Source: an uncultured Candidatus Saccharibacteria bacterium
GTDB lineage: Bacteria > Patescibacteriota > Minisyncoccia > Phycocordibacterales > Zambryskibacteraceae
Direction of reading: 5' to 3'
DNA: 64,000 nt
Assembly (NCBI GenBank): GCA_964355645.1
Contig: CAYHDI010000003.1
Span: forward strand, 887-64,886
Shown here: positions 22,376 through 55,889 of the stretch, piece after piece
How positions within the stretch are numbered: the first letter of the stretch is position 1
Layout: each line of letters starts with the position of its first letter
The notes under the pieces: generated by a model
The model's database searches: none
What the model saw: only the letters and a program-made list of their open reading frames with translations
Told to the model about the DNA's origin: nothing
Made by a program: the position numbers and the translations under genes

Positions 22376-22511
22376 ATAAATTTATTGCTTGCAATTTATA
22401 AGCCAATAAGCTATTGTCGAAAAGTAATGAAAAGACAGGTCAATTCACAGGCATTCTTTTTTACCAGCCACATACAGGTGGGGCGGTAATTTCTTTTGGA
22501 TAAATATAAAA

Positions 22512-22538
22512 ACCGACCTCACGAGGGGTCGGTTTTTT
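22512..22538. terminator. Bidirectional Rho-independent terminator (aaaaaccgacc-tcacgag-gggtcggtttttt)
   Basis: 7-bp GC stem flanked by A-run and T-run. Confidence 0.55.
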
Positions 22539-22610
22539 GTTGGTGGTGAGTGGTGACGGAATGAATTGTTCGTTCCGTCACGGGTTCCCCAACCAAGCCA
22601 GGAGGATCAA

Positions 22611-22832
22611 ATGAACACAAGATGCAGTAAATCATCAACCGGATTTCACACTTTCGTGCAGGAAGTTGAACTTCCAGGAAAGTGCTGGAGACGGAGAGAA
22701 AAAGACGAAAGATTTCTTCCATTCACCAATAGTCGTATGTATTGCACTGCCTGTCATTTCACCACAGATATTGTCACATATGGATATGATGGAGGTAGAA
22801 AGATAGGCTGTCGCTCGGCATTTGGATTTTAG
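22611..22832 (+). CDS. Small Cys-rich ORF (73 codons) with strong Shine-Dalgarno in pheS leader region; possible leader peptide or zinc-ribbon-like small protein
   Basis: AGGAGG 7 nt upstream of ATG; six Cys including CTAC; ends …SAFGF-stop 10 nt before terminator hairpin; sub-ORF of track ORF 22566..22832. Confidence 0.3.
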   Translation: MNTRCSKSSTGFHTFVQEVELPGKCWRRREKDERFLPFTNSRMYCTACHFTTDIVTYGYDGGRKIGCRSAFGF

Positions 22833-22841
22833 GGGAATGTT

Positions 22842-22870
22842 GGGGTAGTGCCGTACCATTACCCCTTTTT
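22842..22870 (+). terminator. Terminator/attenuator hairpin 22 nt upstream of pheS start
   Basis: ggggtag-tgccgtacca-ttacccc then TTTTT; within an unusually long (516-nt) pheS upstream region. Confidence 0.55.
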
Positions 22871-22891
22871 ATAAGTTATAATTGGAAATCA

Positions 22892-24040
22892 ATGAAGGAA
22901 ATATACAAAATATCATTAGAAGAACAAAAAAAGCTCATAGAAAAGCTTGGAGAACGACACGACGCTGAAGCCATGCGCATCAAACACTATTTAACCATGC
23001 CAGACCTTTCTCGTACCTCCGGTAGCCCTATTGGTGAGGTGGTACAGCGTGTTTTAGCTTCTCCATATTTTAAGGATTTGGATGTCATAGAAGTGCCTGA
23101 AATAGTCCCTGCCGATATAAGCTTCGACCTGTTCGACTTTCCAGCAGATCATCCAGCTCGTTCCAAGTCAGATACATATTATGTAGATGATAAAAATATT
23201 CTTCGTACACATACTACAGTGATGTGGTATTACTATTTGCAACAGCCGGATGTTAAGAAACGCATGAACGCAGGTGAGCCAGTTGGCTGTTTCAGTTTTG
23301 GTAAGGTGTATCGCAAGGATGAAATAGATCGTCATCATATGAATGTCTTCCATCAAATGGACGGTTGGTATCTCATACCTAAAGATAAAAAAATAATTGG
23401 CATTGAAGATTTGAAAGACGCACTACTGGCTATTGCTACTGCGGTGTTCGGATCTAATGTCAAATATAGATTCAATCCTGATACTTTCCCATACACTGAT
23501 CCGTCCTTAGATATGGAAATAGATAAAAGTGGCAAATGGTTGGAAGTCTTGGGCAGTGGGGTGGTCAAAGGTAGTGTTCTCGAGAAATTTGGCGTGGATT
23601 CTTCCAAATGGAATGGTTGGGCATTCGGTCCTGGAGTTGAGCGTTTGGCTATGGTTAGTATGGAGCTTCCGGATATTCGTTTGCTTTGGTCCGAAGATGA
23701 AAGAATCAAAAAACAACTTAAATTAGGCAATAAATTCAAAGAAGTAAGCAAGTTTCCTCCGATTGTTCGAGATATTTCTTTCGTAGTGAACAAAGATTTC
23801 ATCCCAAACAATTATTTCGATGCTATTCGAGATGTTGGTGGGGATTTGGTCGAAGAGGTGGAGCTTGTGGATAAATACGAAAATGTTGAGAAGTTCGGTG
23901 AAGGTAAGGTGAGCTATACTTTCAGGATTACTTATCGTGATTTAAACAGAACCCTCACGAACGCTGAAGTGAATGAATTGCACGCGAAGATTGAAAAAGT
24001 CACAACCGACGATTTCGGCGGTTTAATCCGGATCGCATGA
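22892..24040 (+). CDS. pheS: Phenylalanine--tRNA ligase alpha-type catalytic subunit with C-terminal FDX-ACB-like anticodon-binding extension
   Basis: class II motifs FPYTDPS, GWAFGPGVERLAMV; extra ~95 aa C-terminal domain beginning SKFPPIVRDISFVV characteristic of the FDX-ACB domain of PheT / mitochondrial PheRS. Confidence 0.85.
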   Translation: MKEIYKISLEEQKKLIEKLGERHDAEAMRIKHYLTMPDLSRTSGSPIGEVVQRVLASPYFKDLDVIEVPEIVPADISFDLFDFPADHPARSKSDTYYVDDKNILRTHTTVMWYYYLQQPDVKKRMNAGEPVGCFSFGKVYRKDEIDRHHMNVFHQMDGWYLIPKDKKIIGIEDLKDALLAIATAVFGSNVKYRFNPDTFPYTDPSLDMEIDKSGKWLEVLGSGVVKGSVLEKFGVDSSKWNGWAFGPGVERLAMVSMELPDIRLLWSEDERIKKQLKLGNKFKEVSKFPPIVRDISFVVNKDFIPNNYFDAIRDVGGDLVEEVELVDKYENVEKFGEGKVSYTFRITYRDLNRTLTNAEVNELHAKIEKVTTDDFGGLIRIA

Positions 24041-33178: not shown

Positions 33179-34093
33179 ATGGCCAACAGACACCTTTCAA
33201 GATCGGTGGTTCTCCAAACACTTTTTGAGTGGGACTTTGATCATGAGAGAAACGATAAGGCGGAACCAATTTTTGAGAGGATATTAGCCGAATTTGCTTC
33301 GGGTTCGAATGATAAACCGTTCATGGAGACTCTTCTTCATACGGTTATAGAAAGAAGAAAAGATATTGATTTGCTTATTGAGAAGGCTGCTCCGGATTGG
33401 CCACTCGAGAAGATTTCCATAGTAGATAGAAATATTTTGCGTATTGGTTTGGCCGAACTTTTGTTTGCAGATAGAGAAGAAGTACCTCCGAAAGTGGCTA
33501 TCAATGAAGCCATAGAGCTGGCCAAGAGCTTTGGAGGAGAAACATCAGGTAGGTTTGTAAACGGTGTTCTCGGTGCTGTTTATAAAGAAATGGGTGAACC
33601 GGGCAAGGATGATAAGCCTCGTCCAAAGAAAAAATACGGCAATGTTCCGGACAGCGAGCTTCCTCTTGAACGCTTGGCTGGCGCAGTGGTCTTCGCCCAT
33701 CATGAAGGAAATATTTATTTGGCTCTGGTGCACGACGTGTTTGGACATTGGACTTTGACCAAAGGCAAGCTCGCCGAAAATGAAACCGAAGAAGAGAGTC
33801 TTGTGCGCAAAGTTCCGATTGAAATCGGTGTGCCGATCAAAGTTGGAGTGAAGCTCGGAGGAAATTCGTATTCCACTTTTCATCCGGAGAAAGGCAAGAT
33901 TCGAAAAGAAACTTCATACTTTCTAGCCGAAGCCCCGTATCAAGATTTAACTTTGGATAATAAGGAAGACAAGGGGGGACTTGATGATGTGAAGTGGTTC
34001 AAATTGGCAGACATTTTGGATTTAAATTTTTATGATGACATTTTGCCTATTGTGACGAAAGCCATCACTCTGCTTGCAGAAAATCATTCGTGA
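33179..34093 (+). CDS. nusB: Transcription antitermination factor NusB fused to a C-terminal NUDIX-like domain
   Basis: NusB core RSVVLQTLFEWDF...ILRIGLAELLF...KVAINEAIELAKSFGGE.SGRFVNGVLG (aa 1-140); C-terminal ~150 aa with Nudix-box-like TKGKLAENETEEESLVRKVPIEIGV. Confidence 0.8.
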   Translation: MANRHLSRSVVLQTLFEWDFDHERNDKAEPIFERILAEFASGSNDKPFMETLLHTVIERRKDIDLLIEKAAPDWPLEKISIVDRNILRIGLAELLFADREEVPPKVAINEAIELAKSFGGETSGRFVNGVLGAVYKEMGEPGKDDKPRPKKKYGNVPDSELPLERLAGAVVFAHHEGNIYLALVHDVFGHWTLTKGKLAENETEEESLVRKVPIEIGVPIKVGVKLGGNSYSTFHPEKGKIRKETSYFLAEAPYQDLTLDNKEDKGGLDDVKWFKLADILDLNFYDDILPIVTKAITLLAENHS

Positions 34094-54556: not shown

Positions 54557-55132
54557 TTAGAAAGGCAGAGTAAATGTGAGTTTATGTTCGTTCGGCTCTT
54601 CCCATTTGGAAGTATCAAGTTTGATTTCATTCAAATTACCACCTTCTTTAAAAATGAGTTTATTATTTTCGCGGGCAAAATCATAAATCGCTTTGGTAAT
54701 CCTCACATCATCAATACAATATTCACGAATTTTCTCTATCTCGCCGTTTCTCCACCAATTCACGGCTTCTATCCCGTGCCCAATCTTATTCTTGCCGAGC
54801 GTACCTTCGGCCAGTTGGTCGAGTTTCATTCTGCGTCCATATGATGATTGAATTTCTTTGAGGATATCCAAACTTTTTATTTTCGTCAGGTCGCCCGGAT
54901 AATATTTGTTCAAAAGAGGAATGTCGAAGTGGTCAGAATTAAAACCGATGAGCATATCTGCCCGTTCGAGGATGGGCCAAAGCTTCGGTAATTCTTCTTC
55001 TAGGTATGAGGAGTATTCGTCAGTTTCTGAATCATGAATACAAACCATGGAAATATCTAAAAGAGTCGGGTCATTCTTACCCACATCAGAAAAAAAGTTT
55101 TTGGTTTCTATGTCGAAAGTAATCTTACGCAT
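54557..55132 (-). CDS. DEDD-family 3'-5' exonuclease (RNase H-like fold)
   Basis: motif I ITFDIET, motif II FNSDHFDIPLL, motif III YCIDDV; start at MRKITF overlapping upstream hisS-like stop by 8 nt. Confidence 0.65.
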   Translation of the reverse strand: MRKITFDIETKNFFSDVGKNDPTLLDISMVCIHDSETDEYSSYLEEELPKLWPILERADMLIGFNSDHFDIPLLNKYYPGDLTKIKSLDILKEIQSSYGRRMKLDQLAEGTLGKNKIGHGIEAVNWWRNGEIEKIREYCIDDVRITKAIYDFARENNKLIFKEGGNLNEIKLDTSKWEEPNEHKLTFTLPF

Positions 55133-55889
55133 ATGGACCCAGTTTGTGTGTCTCAAGGAAATCACGAAGAGTAATATCTCCCATACCGAAACCAACAGCA
55201 GGTGTCAATTCTACATCAAATAATTCTAAAAGATTGTCGTATCTTCCACCTCCTGCAATAGCTCGCGGATTTTCTGTGTTAGTGTCGAATATTTCAAAAA
55301 CTATTCCGGTGTAATAAGTTTGTCCTCGAGCAAGTGTTTGGTCAGAAACAATGTTTGGTGCAATATCTTTGAATATTTCAGGATTAGAATTGTTTACTCT
55401 GATTTCAAAATCTTCATCTCTTGCTCCAAACTCTTTCATGATTGAATAAGCCAAAGAGATTATCTCTCTATCTCCTTCAATTCCCGCTATGCCCAAAAGA
55501 TCAGCGTTGAGTTGCCAGTGTTCACGCTTTCTGCCTCGTTGGGGCTTTTCATATCGAAAAAGGTTTGGGATAGAATACCAGCGAAGAGGAAATTTCAAAC
55601 TCTTTCTTCTCCCAGCCACCATGCGGGCAAGCGTGGGAGTCATTTCTGGACGAAGGGTAACAGATCGATCTCCGCGGTCGGTGAAGGTAAAGGTTTGCTC
55701 GTTGACTATCTCTTCGCCGGACTTCTCGCTATAAATTTCGGTAGGTTCAAGTATGGAAGCGCCGTATTCTTCATAGTTAAACTTTTCCGCTATTTTTTTC
55801 CATGTATTAAAAATATAATTCTGAATAGCCATATCTTCAGGATAAAAATCCCTTACACCCTTGTATGGAGCTGTATCAAGTTTGGACAT
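55125..55889 (-). CDS. hisS: Histidyl-tRNA synthetase-like catalytic core lacking anticodon-binding domain (254 aa)
   Basis: class II motif 2 FRYEKPQRGRKREHWQ, HisRS motif 3 AIAGGGRYDNL, ends GFGMGDITLRDF where ABD normally begins. Confidence 0.75.
   Translation of the reverse strand: MSKLDTAPYKGVRDFYPEDMAIQNYIFNTWKKIAEKFNYEEYGASILEPTEIYSEKSGEEIVNEQTFTFTDRGDRSVTLRPEMTPTLARMVAGRRKSLKFPLRWYSIPNLFRYEKPQRGRKREHWQLNADLLGIAGIEGDREIISLAYSIMKEFGARDEDFEIRVNNSNPEIFKDIAPNIVSDQTLARGQTYYTGIVFEIFDTNTENPRAIAGGGRYDNLLELFDVELTPAVGFGMGDITLRDFLETHKLGPYA

What the first reader, a model, noticed from the sequence alone, without database searches (positions are those of the whole stretch)
22892..24040. PheS carrying a C-terminal FDX-ACB-like anticodon-binding domain, with no pheT downstream (mitochondrial-type monomeric PheRS architecture?)
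The 382-aa protein has the complete alpha-subunit catalytic core. It then continues for ~95 aa starting SKFPPIVRDISFVVNKDF…, the characteristic opening of the FDX-ACB domain that bacteria normally carry at the C-terminus of the beta subunit PheT. In almost all bacteria pheS-pheT are adjacent; here pheS is followed by an NlpC/P60 peptidase and gyrB. A catalytic core fused to the anticodon-binding domain is the architecture of monomeric mitochondrial PheRS. This would be notable if no pheT exists in the genome.
Basis: partly seen in the sequence, partly recalled or inferred. Interest (0 to 1): 0.6.

Follow-up and report, generated by a model that had tools for sequence, protein, structure and literature searches.

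The report
Single-chain PheRS in a Parcubacteria genome
This groundwater bacterium (Parcubacteria) encodes a one-piece phenylalanyl-tRNA synthetase built like the mitochondrial enzyme instead of the usual two-subunit bacterial enzyme, and the same gene is highly conserved across this large group of bacteria, although I could not check the whole genome for the missing beta subunit.

Summary
ORF 22892-24040 (+, 382 aa) has a PheS catalytic core (PF01409, E 3e-53) and a full-length FDX-ACB anticodon-binding domain (PF03147, E 2e-22). The AlphaFold model (pLDDT 94) superposes end to end on human mitochondrial PheRS (TM 0.78).

The gene belongs to a Parcubacteria family. It is 62-83% identical across many candidate phyla, more conserved than neighbouring GyrB, RF1, S2 or ThrRS, and linked to gyrB in 70 of 80 loci. 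Catalytic residues and the four residues that read G34 of tRNA-Phe are invariant in 119 of 119 members.

It is not the NCBIfam 'mystery ligase' SrmL: the score is below cutoff and true SrmL proteins have an altered pocket.

No PheT body or second PheS occurs in 1.36 Mb of Parcubacteria DNA around this gene. A cultured relative with canonical pheS-pheT shows no fused copy in the stored part of its gene table.

Absence of pheT from this genome could not be tested; only 64 kb is visible.

A sister sub-lineage pairs the gene with a standalone PheT-B2-like OB-fold gene.

I found no paper describing a bacterial monomeric PheRS.

Verdict: probably the housekeeping, editing-free PheRS of these bacteria, and a new member of a known kind.

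The parts
22892..24040 (+). Complete gene for the single-chain PheRS (382 aa plus stop codon)
   Evidence: ORF listing. Identical protein on 8 independent contigs. Pfam two-domain architecture.
22892..23080 (+). N-terminal helical region (residues 1-63). It has no Pfam match and lacks the PF02912 coiled-coil of canonical bacterial PheS.
   Evidence: No Pfam hit before residue 64. The AF2 model shows helices 10-19, 25-35 and 46-55 at pLDDT above 89.
23081..23716 (+). Class II catalytic core of PheS type (residues 64-275)
   Evidence: PF01409, E 3.1e-53. Foldseek matches to PheS chains.
23204..23218 (+). RTHTT loop (residues 105-109), equivalent to the Thermus His178-Thr179-Ser180 loop that binds the amino acid
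   Evidence: Alignment. R105, T108 and T109 are invariant; position 107 is H in 108 and Q in 11 of 119 (E. coli also has Q). The mapping to Thermus numbering is from my own knowledge.
23306..23365 (+). Motif 2 (residues 139-158: VYRKD...FHQMDG), including the class II arginine R141
   Evidence: R141, F153, H154, Q155 and D157 are invariant in 119 of 119. Asp in place of the canonical Glu is also seen in a eukaryotic (Vitrella) and a phage-context relative.
23486..23506 (+). Phenylalanine ring pocket motif FPYTDPS (residues 199-205; canonical form FPFTEPS)
   Evidence: F199, P200 and T202 are invariant. Position 201 is Y in 104 and the canonical F in 15 of 119. True SrmL proteins have HPYT here.
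23615..23647 (+). Motif 3 GWAFGPGVERL (residues 242-252), containing the specificity alanine (E. coli A294 equivalent) and the motif 3 arginine
   Evidence: G242, W243, A244, G246, G248 and R251 are invariant. SrmL has GLA[LS]G at this motif.
23717..23746 (+). Junction (residues 276-285). E. coli PheS ends exactly here (...DLRFLKQFK), so the fusion equals a complete PheS joined directly to the last domain of PheT.
   Evidence: Alignment with E. coli PheS.
23747..24031 (+). FDX-ACB (B8-type) anticodon-binding domain (residues 286-380)
   Evidence: PF03147 positions 1-94 of 94, E 1.8e-22. TIGR00472 pheT_bact positions 690-798, 78.7 bits. Beta-alpha-beta-beta-alpha-beta-type elements in the model.
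23870..23878 (+). D327-K-Y329, equivalent to human mtPheRS Asp364 and Phe366 (Tyr in Thermus). These hydrogen-bond to and stack on G34 of tRNA-Phe.
   Evidence: Mapping from the alignment and PMC7540514. D327 and Y329 are invariant in 119 of 119.
23912..23914 (+). S341, equivalent to human Ser375 (hydrogen bond to O6 of G34)
   Evidence: invariant.
24029..24031 (+). R380, equivalent to human Arg414 (hydrogen bonds to O6/N7 of G34), third residue from the C-terminus
   Evidence: invariant in 119 of 119.
22842..22870 (+). Terminator-like hairpin plus T-run, 22 nt upstream of the start codon. It probably ends an upstream transcript.
   Evidence: Terminator scan. Sequence.
22877..22882 (+). TATAAT hexamer 9 nt before the ATG. 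Probably the -10 box of a leaderless or near-leaderless PheRS transcript (inferred).
   Evidence: Read from the sequence. Similar TATAAT-like boxes lie 7-14 nt upstream of the start in many related loci. No -35/-10 pair was called by the scan.

Best explanation
The gene encodes a single-chain phenylalanyl-tRNA synthetase of the mitochondrial type. It is a complete PheS catalytic module joined at its natural C-terminus to the FDX-ACB (B8) anticodon-binding domain that normally ends the beta subunit PheT. Proposed mechanism (inferred from the homologous human enzyme): the core activates phenylalanine with ATP. The FDX-ACB domain swings from a closed to an open position and reads G34 of tRNA-Phe through Asp327, Tyr329, Ser341 and Arg380. 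Phe is then transferred to A76. The B3/B4 editing site is absent, so accuracy rests on the synthetic site alone. In Parcubacteria this protein is most likely the only, housekeeping PheRS, having replaced the (alpha-beta)2 enzyme. The simplest origin is an in-frame deletion inside a pheS-pheT operon that removed the pheS stop codon and PheT domains B1-B7. Shown here: architecture, fold, residue conservation, lineage-wide distribution and strong purifying selection. Inferred: enzymatic activity, monomeric state, absence of PheT from the genome, and the deletion origin.
For: - Domains: PF01409 plus full-length PF03147.
- Closest solved structures by sequence are human mtPheRS, E 1.6e-60.
- AF2 model with pLDDT 93.9 matches closed mtPheRS 3CMQ/5MGV at TM 0.78 over 389 columns.
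- Catalytic motifs and all four G34-reading residues are invariant in 119 of 119 family members. The only unusual pocket residue (Y201) alternates with the canonical F (residues).
- The family spans many Parcubacteria candidate phyla at 62-83% identity. It collapses to one 50%-identity cluster.
- It is more conserved than the adjacent housekeeping genes. In pairwise comparisons PheRS averages 70-74% identity, against GyrB 66, DnaE 67, RF1 64, S2 60, EF-Ts 56 and ThrRS 51. It lies within 4 kb of gyrB in 70 of 80 loci.
- No PheT B1/B3-4/B5/B6-7 sequence and no second PheS-like gene occur in 1.36 Mb of Parcubacteria DNA, including the window.
- The cultured relative Minisyncoccus archaeiphilus has an adjacent canonical pheT and pheS. 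The stored part of its gene table lists only one PF01409 and one PF03147 protein, so no fused copy is seen there.
- E. coli PheS ends exactly at the fusion junction.
Against: - Only 64 kb of the genome (a contig of 76-79 kb) is visible, so a canonical pheS-pheT elsewhere cannot be excluded.
- With genomes of roughly 0.7 Mb (my estimate), about 2 chance encounters with pheT would be expected in 1.36 Mb if it lay at random positions. Zero hits is therefore only weak evidence.
- The window protein falls just below the curated cutoffs of both TIGR00469 pheS_mito (248.5 vs 258.35) and SrmL (250.5 vs 300).
- Its nearest non-CPR relatives (Oligoflexia P0125, P0126) sit in accessory, non-housekeeping contexts.
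- In the tree it groups, weakly, with SrmL rather than with the mitochondrial clade.
- Some Parcubacteria keep a canonical PheST.
- No biochemical data exist.
- The Minisyncoccus table was truncated when stored.
Confidence: 0.77

Rival explanations
1. The protein is an accessory PheS paralog of the SrmL 'mystery ligase' kind. It would ligate something other than Phe to tRNA-Phe, or act on another acceptor, alongside a normal PheS/PheT encoded elsewhere in the genome.
For: The highest-scoring NCBIfam model is SrmL NF051887 (250.5 bits). True SrmL members (P0250, P0270; 376-415 bits) fall in the same half of the NJ tree as the Parcubacteria clade. Related proteins in Oligoflexia and another non-CPR bacterium lie among accessory metabolic genes. 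The rest of the genome is unseen.
Against: The score is 50 bits below the SrmL cutoff. True SrmL proteins differ at pocket positions (HPYT, HQ[IV]D[VI], GLA[LS]G), whereas the Parcubacteria proteins keep FP[YF]T, FHQxDG and GWAFG. The protein is more conserved than GyrB and ribosomal protein S2 and is embedded in housekeeping synteny. It is single-copy in every locus. The grouping with SrmL has only 57/100 bootstrap support. Redundant aaRS genes are unusual in genomes this small (general knowledge).
Confidence: 0.1
2. The protein is the PheRS catalytic chain but does not work alone. It needs a small trans-acting partner derived from PheT, such as the standalone B2-like tRNA-binding OB-fold protein, encoded elsewhere in this genome.
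For: A family of 561 standalone PF01588 proteins of 130-150 aa scores best against PheT positions 39-148 (84-106 bits). In 5 of 5 sampled cases the gene lies 3-15 nt upstream of a fused PheRS followed by gyrB.
Against: The OB-fold gene is absent from the window and from 84 of the 86 other Parcubacteria loci examined (85 fetched around this gene plus L094), including the gap directly upstream of this gene (profile search). Human and yeast mitochondrial enzymes with the same two modules are active as monomers (established knowledge). The B2 domain is already missing from many CPR PheT proteins (PMC5370408), so it is not generally required.
Confidence: 0.1
3. The fusion is an artefact: a frameshift, a mis-assembly, or a pseudogene remnant of a decaying pheS-pheT operon.
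For: None found. This was considered only because metagenome assemblies can create chimeras.
Against: The identical 382-aa protein is encoded on 8 contigs from several independent samples. More than a hundred database clusters of constant length (about 378-383 aa) share the architecture. Functional residues are invariant. The structure model is high-confidence, with the two domains packed together.
Confidence: 0.01

Closest known systems
Mitochondrial phenylalanyl-tRNA synthetase (human FARS2, yeast MSF1; NCBIfam TIGR00469 pheS_mito; PDB 3CMQ, 3TUP)
   Same: Single chain made of a PheS-type core plus a C-terminal FDX-ACB domain. Both lack the B3/B4 editing domain and the beta subunit. Full-length fold match at TM 0.78. 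About 50% identity over the C-terminal 200 residues. The same G34-reading residues, Asp / aromatic / Ser / Arg. The same linker motif, PDIRLxWSxDERxxKQ.
   Different: The host is bacterial, with no targeting peptide. The protein is shorter (382 aa vs 415 mature) because it lacks the roughly 30-residue insertion after motif 2 seen in the human and Salpingoeca proteins. It has a different N-terminal helical region. Its score is just under the TIGR00469 cutoff (248.5 vs 258.35), although another family member passes (P0121, 264.3). It has FPY instead of FPF and Asp instead of Glu in FHQxEG. It does not branch inside the eukaryotic clade in my tree.
SrmL, 'PheS-related mystery ligase' (NCBIfam NF051887)
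   Same: The same two-domain layout, and bacterial. It is the best-scoring NCBIfam model (250.5 bits). Both have Tyr at the second aromatic position of the pocket motif.
   Different: The window protein is below the curated cutoff of 300. True members (P0250, P0270) have His in place of the first pocket Phe, Val/Ile in place of the Gly after HQxD, and Leu/Ser in place of Phe in GxAFG. One of them lacks the C-terminal Arg. I found no paper on SrmL; nothing about its biology beyond the model name is known to me.
Canonical bacterial (alpha-beta)2 PheRS (PheS TIGR00468 plus PheT TIGR00472), e.g. E. coli, Thermus thermophilus, and the Parcubacteria-class isolate Minisyncoccus archaeiphilus
   Same: Homologous catalytic core and motifs (E 1e-37 to 1e-22 against PDB PheS chains). 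Homologous anticodon-binding domain (78.7 bits to the last 109 positions of pheT_bact).
   Different: One gene instead of two. There are no B1, B2, B3/B4 (editing), B5 or B6/B7 domains. It lacks the PF02912 N-terminal coiled-coil of PheS. Its PheS score of 160.6 is far below the cutoff of 237.45.
Short (about 345-370 aa) fused PheRS genes on very large, phage-like contigs (P0275 on 341 kb, P0144 on 160 kb)
   Same: Same architecture and similar size. They pass the pheS_mito cutoff.
   Different: They group with the eukaryotic/mitochondrial clade, not with Parcubacteria. Their neighbourhoods are runs of unannotated ORFs with PhageMetallopep, PcfJ, Thy1 and dCMP deaminase. The viral origin is inferred from context only; an IMG/VR scan with exact peptide patterns found nothing.

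Membership tests
Mitochondrial-type single-chain PheRS (TIGR00469 / FARS2-like) | PheS class II core and FDX-ACB domain in one polypeptide, in that order | tested here: met
   PF01409 on residues 64-275 and PF03147 on residues 286-380.
Mitochondrial-type single-chain PheRS (TIGR00469 / FARS2-like) | Score at or above the curated NCBIfam cutoff (258.35 bits) | tested here: not met
   248.5 bits, about 10 bits short. The 50%-identity cluster representative of the same Parcubacteria family passes with 264.3. The model was built for eukaryotic sequences.
Mitochondrial-type single-chain PheRS (TIGR00469 / FARS2-like) | Full-length three-dimensional similarity to solved mtPheRS, including the docking of the anticodon-binding domain on the core | tested here: met
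   Foldseek: 5MGV/3CMQ E about 1e-34, TM 0.78, rmsd 3.3-3.4 A over 389 columns. The open-state complex 3TUP gives TM 0.58. Model pLDDT 93.9, pTM 0.89.
Mitochondrial-type single-chain PheRS (TIGR00469 / FARS2-like) | Residues that bind Phe and ATP are conserved (motifs 2 and 3, FPF pocket, specificity Ala) | tested here: met
   R141, FHQxD, F199-P200-[Y/F]201-T202, A244 and R251 are invariant or conservatively varied in 119 sequences.
Mitochondrial-type single-chain PheRS (TIGR00469 / FARS2-like) | G34 anticodon recognition network (human Asp364, Phe366, Ser375, Arg414) | tested here: met
   D327, Y329, S341 and R380 are invariant in 119 of 119.
Mitochondrial-type single-chain PheRS (TIGR00469 / FARS2-like) | Active as a monomer, without any beta subunit | not testable with these tools
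   This requires purified protein: an aminoacylation assay and a measurement of oligomeric state.
Mitochondrial-type single-chain PheRS (TIGR00469 / FARS2-like) | It is the only PheRS of its compartment or genome (no PheT) | tested here: inconclusive
   No PheT body and no second PheS in the window or in 85 related loci, 1.36 Mb in total.
SrmL, PheS-related mystery ligase (NF051887) | Score at or above the curated cutoff (300 bits) | tested here: not met
   250.5 bits. True members score 376-415.
SrmL, PheS-related mystery ligase (NF051887) | Family-specific pocket residues as seen in two true members (HPYT; HQxD followed by V/I; GLA[L/S]G) | tested here: not met
   The query has FPYT, FHQMDG and GWAFG. 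This list of features was derived here from only two true members, not from a published definition.
Canonical bacterial PheS alpha subunit (TIGR00468) | Score at or above the curated cutoff (237.45 bits), and the N-terminal PF02912 domain | tested here: not met
   160.6 bits. No PF02912 hit.
Canonical bacterial PheS alpha subunit (TIGR00468) | Adjacent pheT gene | tested here: not met
   None in the window or in any of 80 related Parcubacteria loci with up to 10 kb of flank on each side.

The most novel reading that the evidence does not exclude
Parcubacteria, and at least some UGA=Gly recoded CPR bacteria, have entirely dispensed with the (alpha-beta)2 PheRS and its editing site. They rely on a single-chain alpha-B8 enzyme, so the 'mitochondria-only' monomeric PheRS would be an old bacterial invention. 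It would have been created by a deletion inside a pheS-pheT operon, and the mitochondrial, huge-phage and SrmL forms would all descend from it. In one Parcubacteria sub-lineage a free B2-like OB-fold protein encoded immediately upstream would serve as a minimal trans-acting 'beta subunit'.
Probability: 0.3. Interest if true: 0.8.

Novelty: new member of a known kind. Interest (0 to 1): 0.55.

Why it matters
Textbook accounts give three forms of PheRS: bacterial (alpha-beta)2, archaeal/eukaryotic cytosolic (alpha-beta)2, and a monomeric form confined to organelles (for example PMC3275996, listed).

If the fused enzyme is the sole PheRS of Parcubacteria, several things follow:
- A very large bacterial radiation translates Phe codons with an editing-free, single-chain enzyme. 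That bears on translational fidelity in ultra-small symbionts.
- It bears on the minimal requirements for PheRS function.
- It bears on the unresolved origin of the mitochondrial enzyme.

There are practical consequences too. NCBI records label many of these proteins 'hypothetical protein', because they fall between curated cutoffs. Genome-completeness and phylogenomic marker sets that expect PheS and PheT models (both are GTDB bac120 markers, from my own knowledge) will systematically miss them in these lineages.

The protein is small, highly conserved and predicted with high confidence, so the hypothesis is directly testable in vitro.

Tried and rejected
1. Literature. Nine full-text searches found no description of a bacterial or CPR monomeric PheRS, nor of SrmL. 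The library holds only open-access papers, so this is not proof of novelty.

2. Genome-wide pheT test. The single genome-contig scan went on finding relatives of the fused gene. I could not obtain a CPR PheT sequence to use as a targeted query. KO/Pfam tables in the supplements of three Patescibacteria papers were empty for PheS/PheT. Only the Minisyncoccus table helped.

3. T-box or other leader RNA upstream. Rfam found nothing at gathering thresholds and only chance-level hits at E<=1. The 516-nt gap is species-specific: the median gap in relatives is 60 nt. I rejected it as a conserved regulator of this gene.

4. Remnant of the OB-fold gene in that gap. A profile search of six-frame translations was negative.

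5. Specificity switch at the FPY pocket residue. Rejected, because 15 of 119 family members have the canonical FPF.

6. Sister relationship between Parcubacteria and mitochondrial PheRS. The NJ tree has a single outgroup (E. coli PheS). Bootstrap support is 94 for Parcubacteria monophyly but only 36-57 for the deeper nodes. I make no claim about branching order.

7. Viral origin of the short clade B forms. An IMG/VR scan with P0275 returned nothing, so this remains an inference from gene context.

8. The Hainich HGT paper and two other papers mentioning PheRS with Patescibacteria contained nothing relevant.
Full report
OBSERVATION. The ORF at 22892-24040 (+) is real: ATG start, 382 aa. Pfam places a PheS-type class II core on residues 64-275 (PF01409, E 3.1e-53). 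It places a complete ferredoxin-fold anticodon-binding domain on residues 286-380 (PF03147, profile positions 1-94 of 94, E 1.8e-22, 80 bits against a gathering score of 31.1). The downstream genes are an NlpC/P60 peptidase, which overlaps the stop codon by 4 nt, and gyrB. tblastn with E. coli PheT at E<=10 finds nothing in the 64-kb window apart from the FDX-ACB part of this gene. The identical protein is encoded on 8 contigs from several samples. The longest are from a 0.1-um-filtered Hainich groundwater metagenome. Neighbouring genes and the closest database relatives identify the organism as a member of Parcubacteria (Paceibacteria/Minisyncoccia, Patescibacteria).

WHAT THE PROTEIN IS. By sequence, the best solved structures are human mitochondrial PheRS (E 1.6e-60). 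Bacterial PheS chains follow at E 1e-37 or weaker, and PheT chains match only residues 281-370. An AlphaFold2 model built on 36 homologs is confident throughout (mean pLDDT 93.9, pTM 0.89). Foldseek aligns it end to end with closed-state human mtPheRS (3CMQ, 5MGV: TM 0.78, rmsd 3.3-3.4 A, 389 columns). The open tRNA-bound state (3TUP) gives TM 0.58, and bacterial PheS covers only the core (TMq about 0.54). In an alignment with E. coli PheS, the E. coli protein ends (...DLRFLKQFK) exactly where the FDX-ACB domain begins in the fused proteins. The fused protein is therefore a whole PheS plus the last domain of PheT. That is what an in-frame deletion inside a pheS-pheT operon would produce; this origin is an inference.

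FUNCTIONAL RESIDUES. I aligned 119 full-length family members. The class II and Phe-binding residues are invariant: R141, F153-H154-Q155, D157, F199-P200, T202, A244, G246, G248 and R251. The only unusual pocket residue, Y201 (FPY instead of FPF), is the canonical F in 15 sequences. Asp in place of Glu in FHQxEG also occurs in a eukaryotic and a phage-context relative. For tRNA recognition, PMC7540514 reports that human mtPheRS reads G34 of tRNA-Phe with Asp364, Phe366 (Tyr in Thermus), Ser375 and Arg414, and that the Asp364Gly mutant is inactive. Through the alignment these map to D327, Y329, S341 and R380, all invariant in 119 of 119. These results support Phe and tRNA-Phe as the substrates.

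NOT SrmL. The top NCBIfam model is NF051887, 'PheS-related mystery ligase SrmL' (250.5 bits), but its cutoff is 300. TIGR00469 pheS_mito scores 248.5 against a cutoff of 258.35, and canonical pheS scores 160.6 against 237.45. True SrmL members found here (P0250, P0270; 376-415 bits) differ at pocket positions: HPYT, HQ[IV]D[VI] and GLA[LS]G. One of them lacks the C-terminal Arg. The window protein keeps the PheRS versions of these motifs. Another member of the same Parcubacteria family passes the pheS_mito cutoff (264.3). The family thus sits between curated models, which explains why many NCBI records call it 'hypothetical protein'.

DISTRIBUTION AND SELECTION. More than a hundred 90%-identity clusters of 378-383 aa with both domains are 71-83% identical to the query. 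Eighty species-level genomes carry it at 62-77% identity; their record titles name Yanofsky-, Zambryski-, Doudna-, Kaiser-, Giovannoni-, Nomura-, Vogel- and Spechtbacteria and Minisyncoccia, among others. At 50% clustering the whole group is essentially one cluster, followed by a gap down to 45-48% identity. Two of those next relatives (P0123, P0127) show W where all other sequences have G. The P0127 gene has 13 in-frame TGA codons and no internal stops under table 25, so UGA=Gly recoded CPR bacteria also have a fused PheRS. Across the 80 loci the fused PheRS averages 70-74% identity in pairwise comparisons. The same comparisons give GyrB 66, DnaE 67, RF1 64, S2 60, EF-Ts 56 and ThrRS 51. The gene lies within 4 kb of gyrB in 70 of 80 loci. 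It is single-copy in every locus.

IS THERE A PheT? This could not be answered for this genome. The indirect evidence is as follows.
- (a) No B1, B3/4, B5 or B6/7 sequence occurs in 1.36 Mb (the window plus 85 loci). With genomes of roughly 0.7 Mb (my estimate), only about 2 chance hits would be expected, so this is weak on its own. It does show that the nearly universal pheS-pheT adjacency is gone.
- (b) The cultured class member Minisyncoccus archaeiphilus has an adjacent canonical pheT (2046 nt; B3/4, CLM, B5, FDX-ACB) and pheS (1062 nt; PF01409+PF02912). The stored part of its gene table lists no further PF01409 or PF03147 protein. This fits the two systems being alternatives. It also shows that the fused form is not universal in the class.
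- (c) The level of conservation and the housekeeping synteny argue against a dispensable paralog.

I put the probability that this is the sole PheRS at roughly three in four.

WIDER FAMILY. Almost all of the 150 closest 50%-identity representatives have the fused layout. They include:
- eukaryotic proteins (Salpingoeca, Vitrella);
- short forms on contigs of 160-341 kb with phage-like gene content;
- an Oligoflexia protein and a FDX-ACB-less relative in accessory contexts;
- SrmL.

An NJ tree rooted on E. coli PheS recovers Parcubacteria as a clade (94/100). The deeper nodes have only 36-57/100 support, so I draw no conclusion on whether the mitochondrial enzyme derives from a CPR-like ancestor.

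A POSSIBLE MINI BETA SUBUNIT IN A SISTER SUB-LINEAGE. In L059 a 152-aa ORF lies 10 nt upstream of the fused PheRS. It belongs to a family of 561 standalone PF01588 proteins of 130-150 aa. Their best NCBIfam match is the B2 region of bacterial PheT (positions 39-148, 84-106 bits), ahead of YtpR. The closest solved structures are a putative tRNA-binding protein (3BU2) and PheT chains. In all five members whose context I examined, the gene sits 3-15 nt upstream of a fused PheRS followed by gyrB, including on contigs of 681, 730 and 785 kb. It is absent from the window and from the other 84 loci. It may act as a trans-acting tRNA-binding factor in that sub-lineage. It is not part of the locus under review.

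UPSTREAM REGION. The 516-nt gene-free stretch 22376-22891 has no Rfam family. It is found only in contigs of the same species, and it folds somewhat better than shuffled controls (z -3.05). It ends in a terminator-like hairpin at 22842-22865 followed by a T-run, and then a TATAAT hexamer 9 nt before the ATG. Relatives have a median upstream gap of 60 nt, and many show a TATAAT-like box 7-14 nt before the start codon. This suggests leaderless or near-leaderless transcripts (inference). There is no evidence for a T-box or attenuator.

COMPARISON WITH THE KNOWN, AND NOVELTY. The protein works like mitochondrial PheRS and shares its defining architecture, fold and recognition residues. It narrowly misses the curated sequence cutoff, which was tuned on eukaryotes. 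It fails the membership tests for SrmL and for canonical PheS. Nine full-text searches found no description of a bacterial monomeric PheRS. That corpus is open-access only, and database curators have clearly seen related bacterial proteins, since the SrmL model exists. I therefore rate it a new member of a known kind, with moderate-to-high interest. The interest lies in the phyletic claim, which still needs the whole-genome test, and not in a new mechanism.

Noticed in passing
window 55125-55889 (-): A 254-aa 'mini-HisRS'. It has the HisRS catalytic core (PF13393, E 9e-37; best NCBIfam hisS at 244 bits vs cutoff 287, with hisZ at only 155) and ends about 25 residues after motif 3 (GGGRYD). It has no HGTP_anticodon domain and a much reduced insertion domain. 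It is a conserved Parcubacteria family: 120 listed clusters at 77-92% identity, nearly all 253-258 aa. NCBI labels them 'ATP phosphoribosyltransferase regulatory subunit' or 'hypothetical', and JGI labels them 'histidyl-tRNA synthetase'. It may be a second domain-minimised housekeeping aaRS in the same genome. Whether a full-length HisRS also exists was not tested.
   Followed up: partly
L059 9520-9978; L094 8001-8429; L095 6001-6402; L096 6001-6393 (not in the window): A standalone tRNA_bind (PF01588) OB-fold protein of 130-152 aa resembling the PheT B2 domain, from a family of 561 clusters. In 5 of 5 sampled cases it is encoded 3-15 nt upstream of a fused PheRS followed by gyrB. JGI annotates it as 'PheRS beta chain'. 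It may be a minimal trans-acting partner of the single-chain PheRS in one Parcubacteria sub-lineage.
   Followed up: partly
window 22376-22891 (+): A 516-nt gene-free stretch upstream of PheRS. It has a bidirectional terminator-like hairpin at 22508-22537, a 13-bp hairpin near 22553-22581, and a second terminator-like hairpin at 22842-22865. It folds at z = -3.05, has no Rfam family, and is conserved only within the same species. It may be a species-specific small RNA or the remains of a lost gene.
   Followed up: partly
L091 9463-10833 and L092 154-1524: The fused PheRS of a low-GC (32.5%) CPR lineage is read with UGA=Gly: 13 in-frame TGA codons, no internal stops under table 25, and conserved glycines restored. 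The database proteins P0123 and P0127 carry W at these positions because they were translated with a different code.
   Followed up: yes
L093 10001-11047 (341-kb contig) and L087 10001-11065 (160-kb contig): Short (348-354 aa) fused PheRS genes that pass the pheS_mito cutoff lie in neighbourhoods typical of huge phages: long runs of unannotated ORFs plus PhageMetallopep, PcfJ, Thy1, dCMP deaminase and an eIF-1a-like gene. They group with eukaryotic mitochondrial-type sequences in the tree. An IMG/VR scan did not confirm a viral origin.
   Followed up: partly
window 33179-34093 (+): A single ORF combining an N-terminal NusB domain (E 3e-34) with a C-terminal NUDIX hydrolase domain (E 7e-8), an unusual fusion.
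   Followed up: no
window 54560-55204 (-): An ORF immediately downstream of the mini-HisRS has DEDD-exonuclease-like motifs (FDIET, HFDIPLL, CIDDV by eye) but no NCBIfam match. My first ORF pass missed it because it overlaps a spurious opposite-strand ORF.
   Followed up: no
window 22877-22882, and the 70 nt upstream of the PheRS start in L006-L085: Many Parcubacteria PheRS genes have a TATAAT-like hexamer only 7-14 nt before the start codon and no obvious Shine-Dalgarno sequence. This suggests leaderless transcription of this gene across the group.
   Followed up: no
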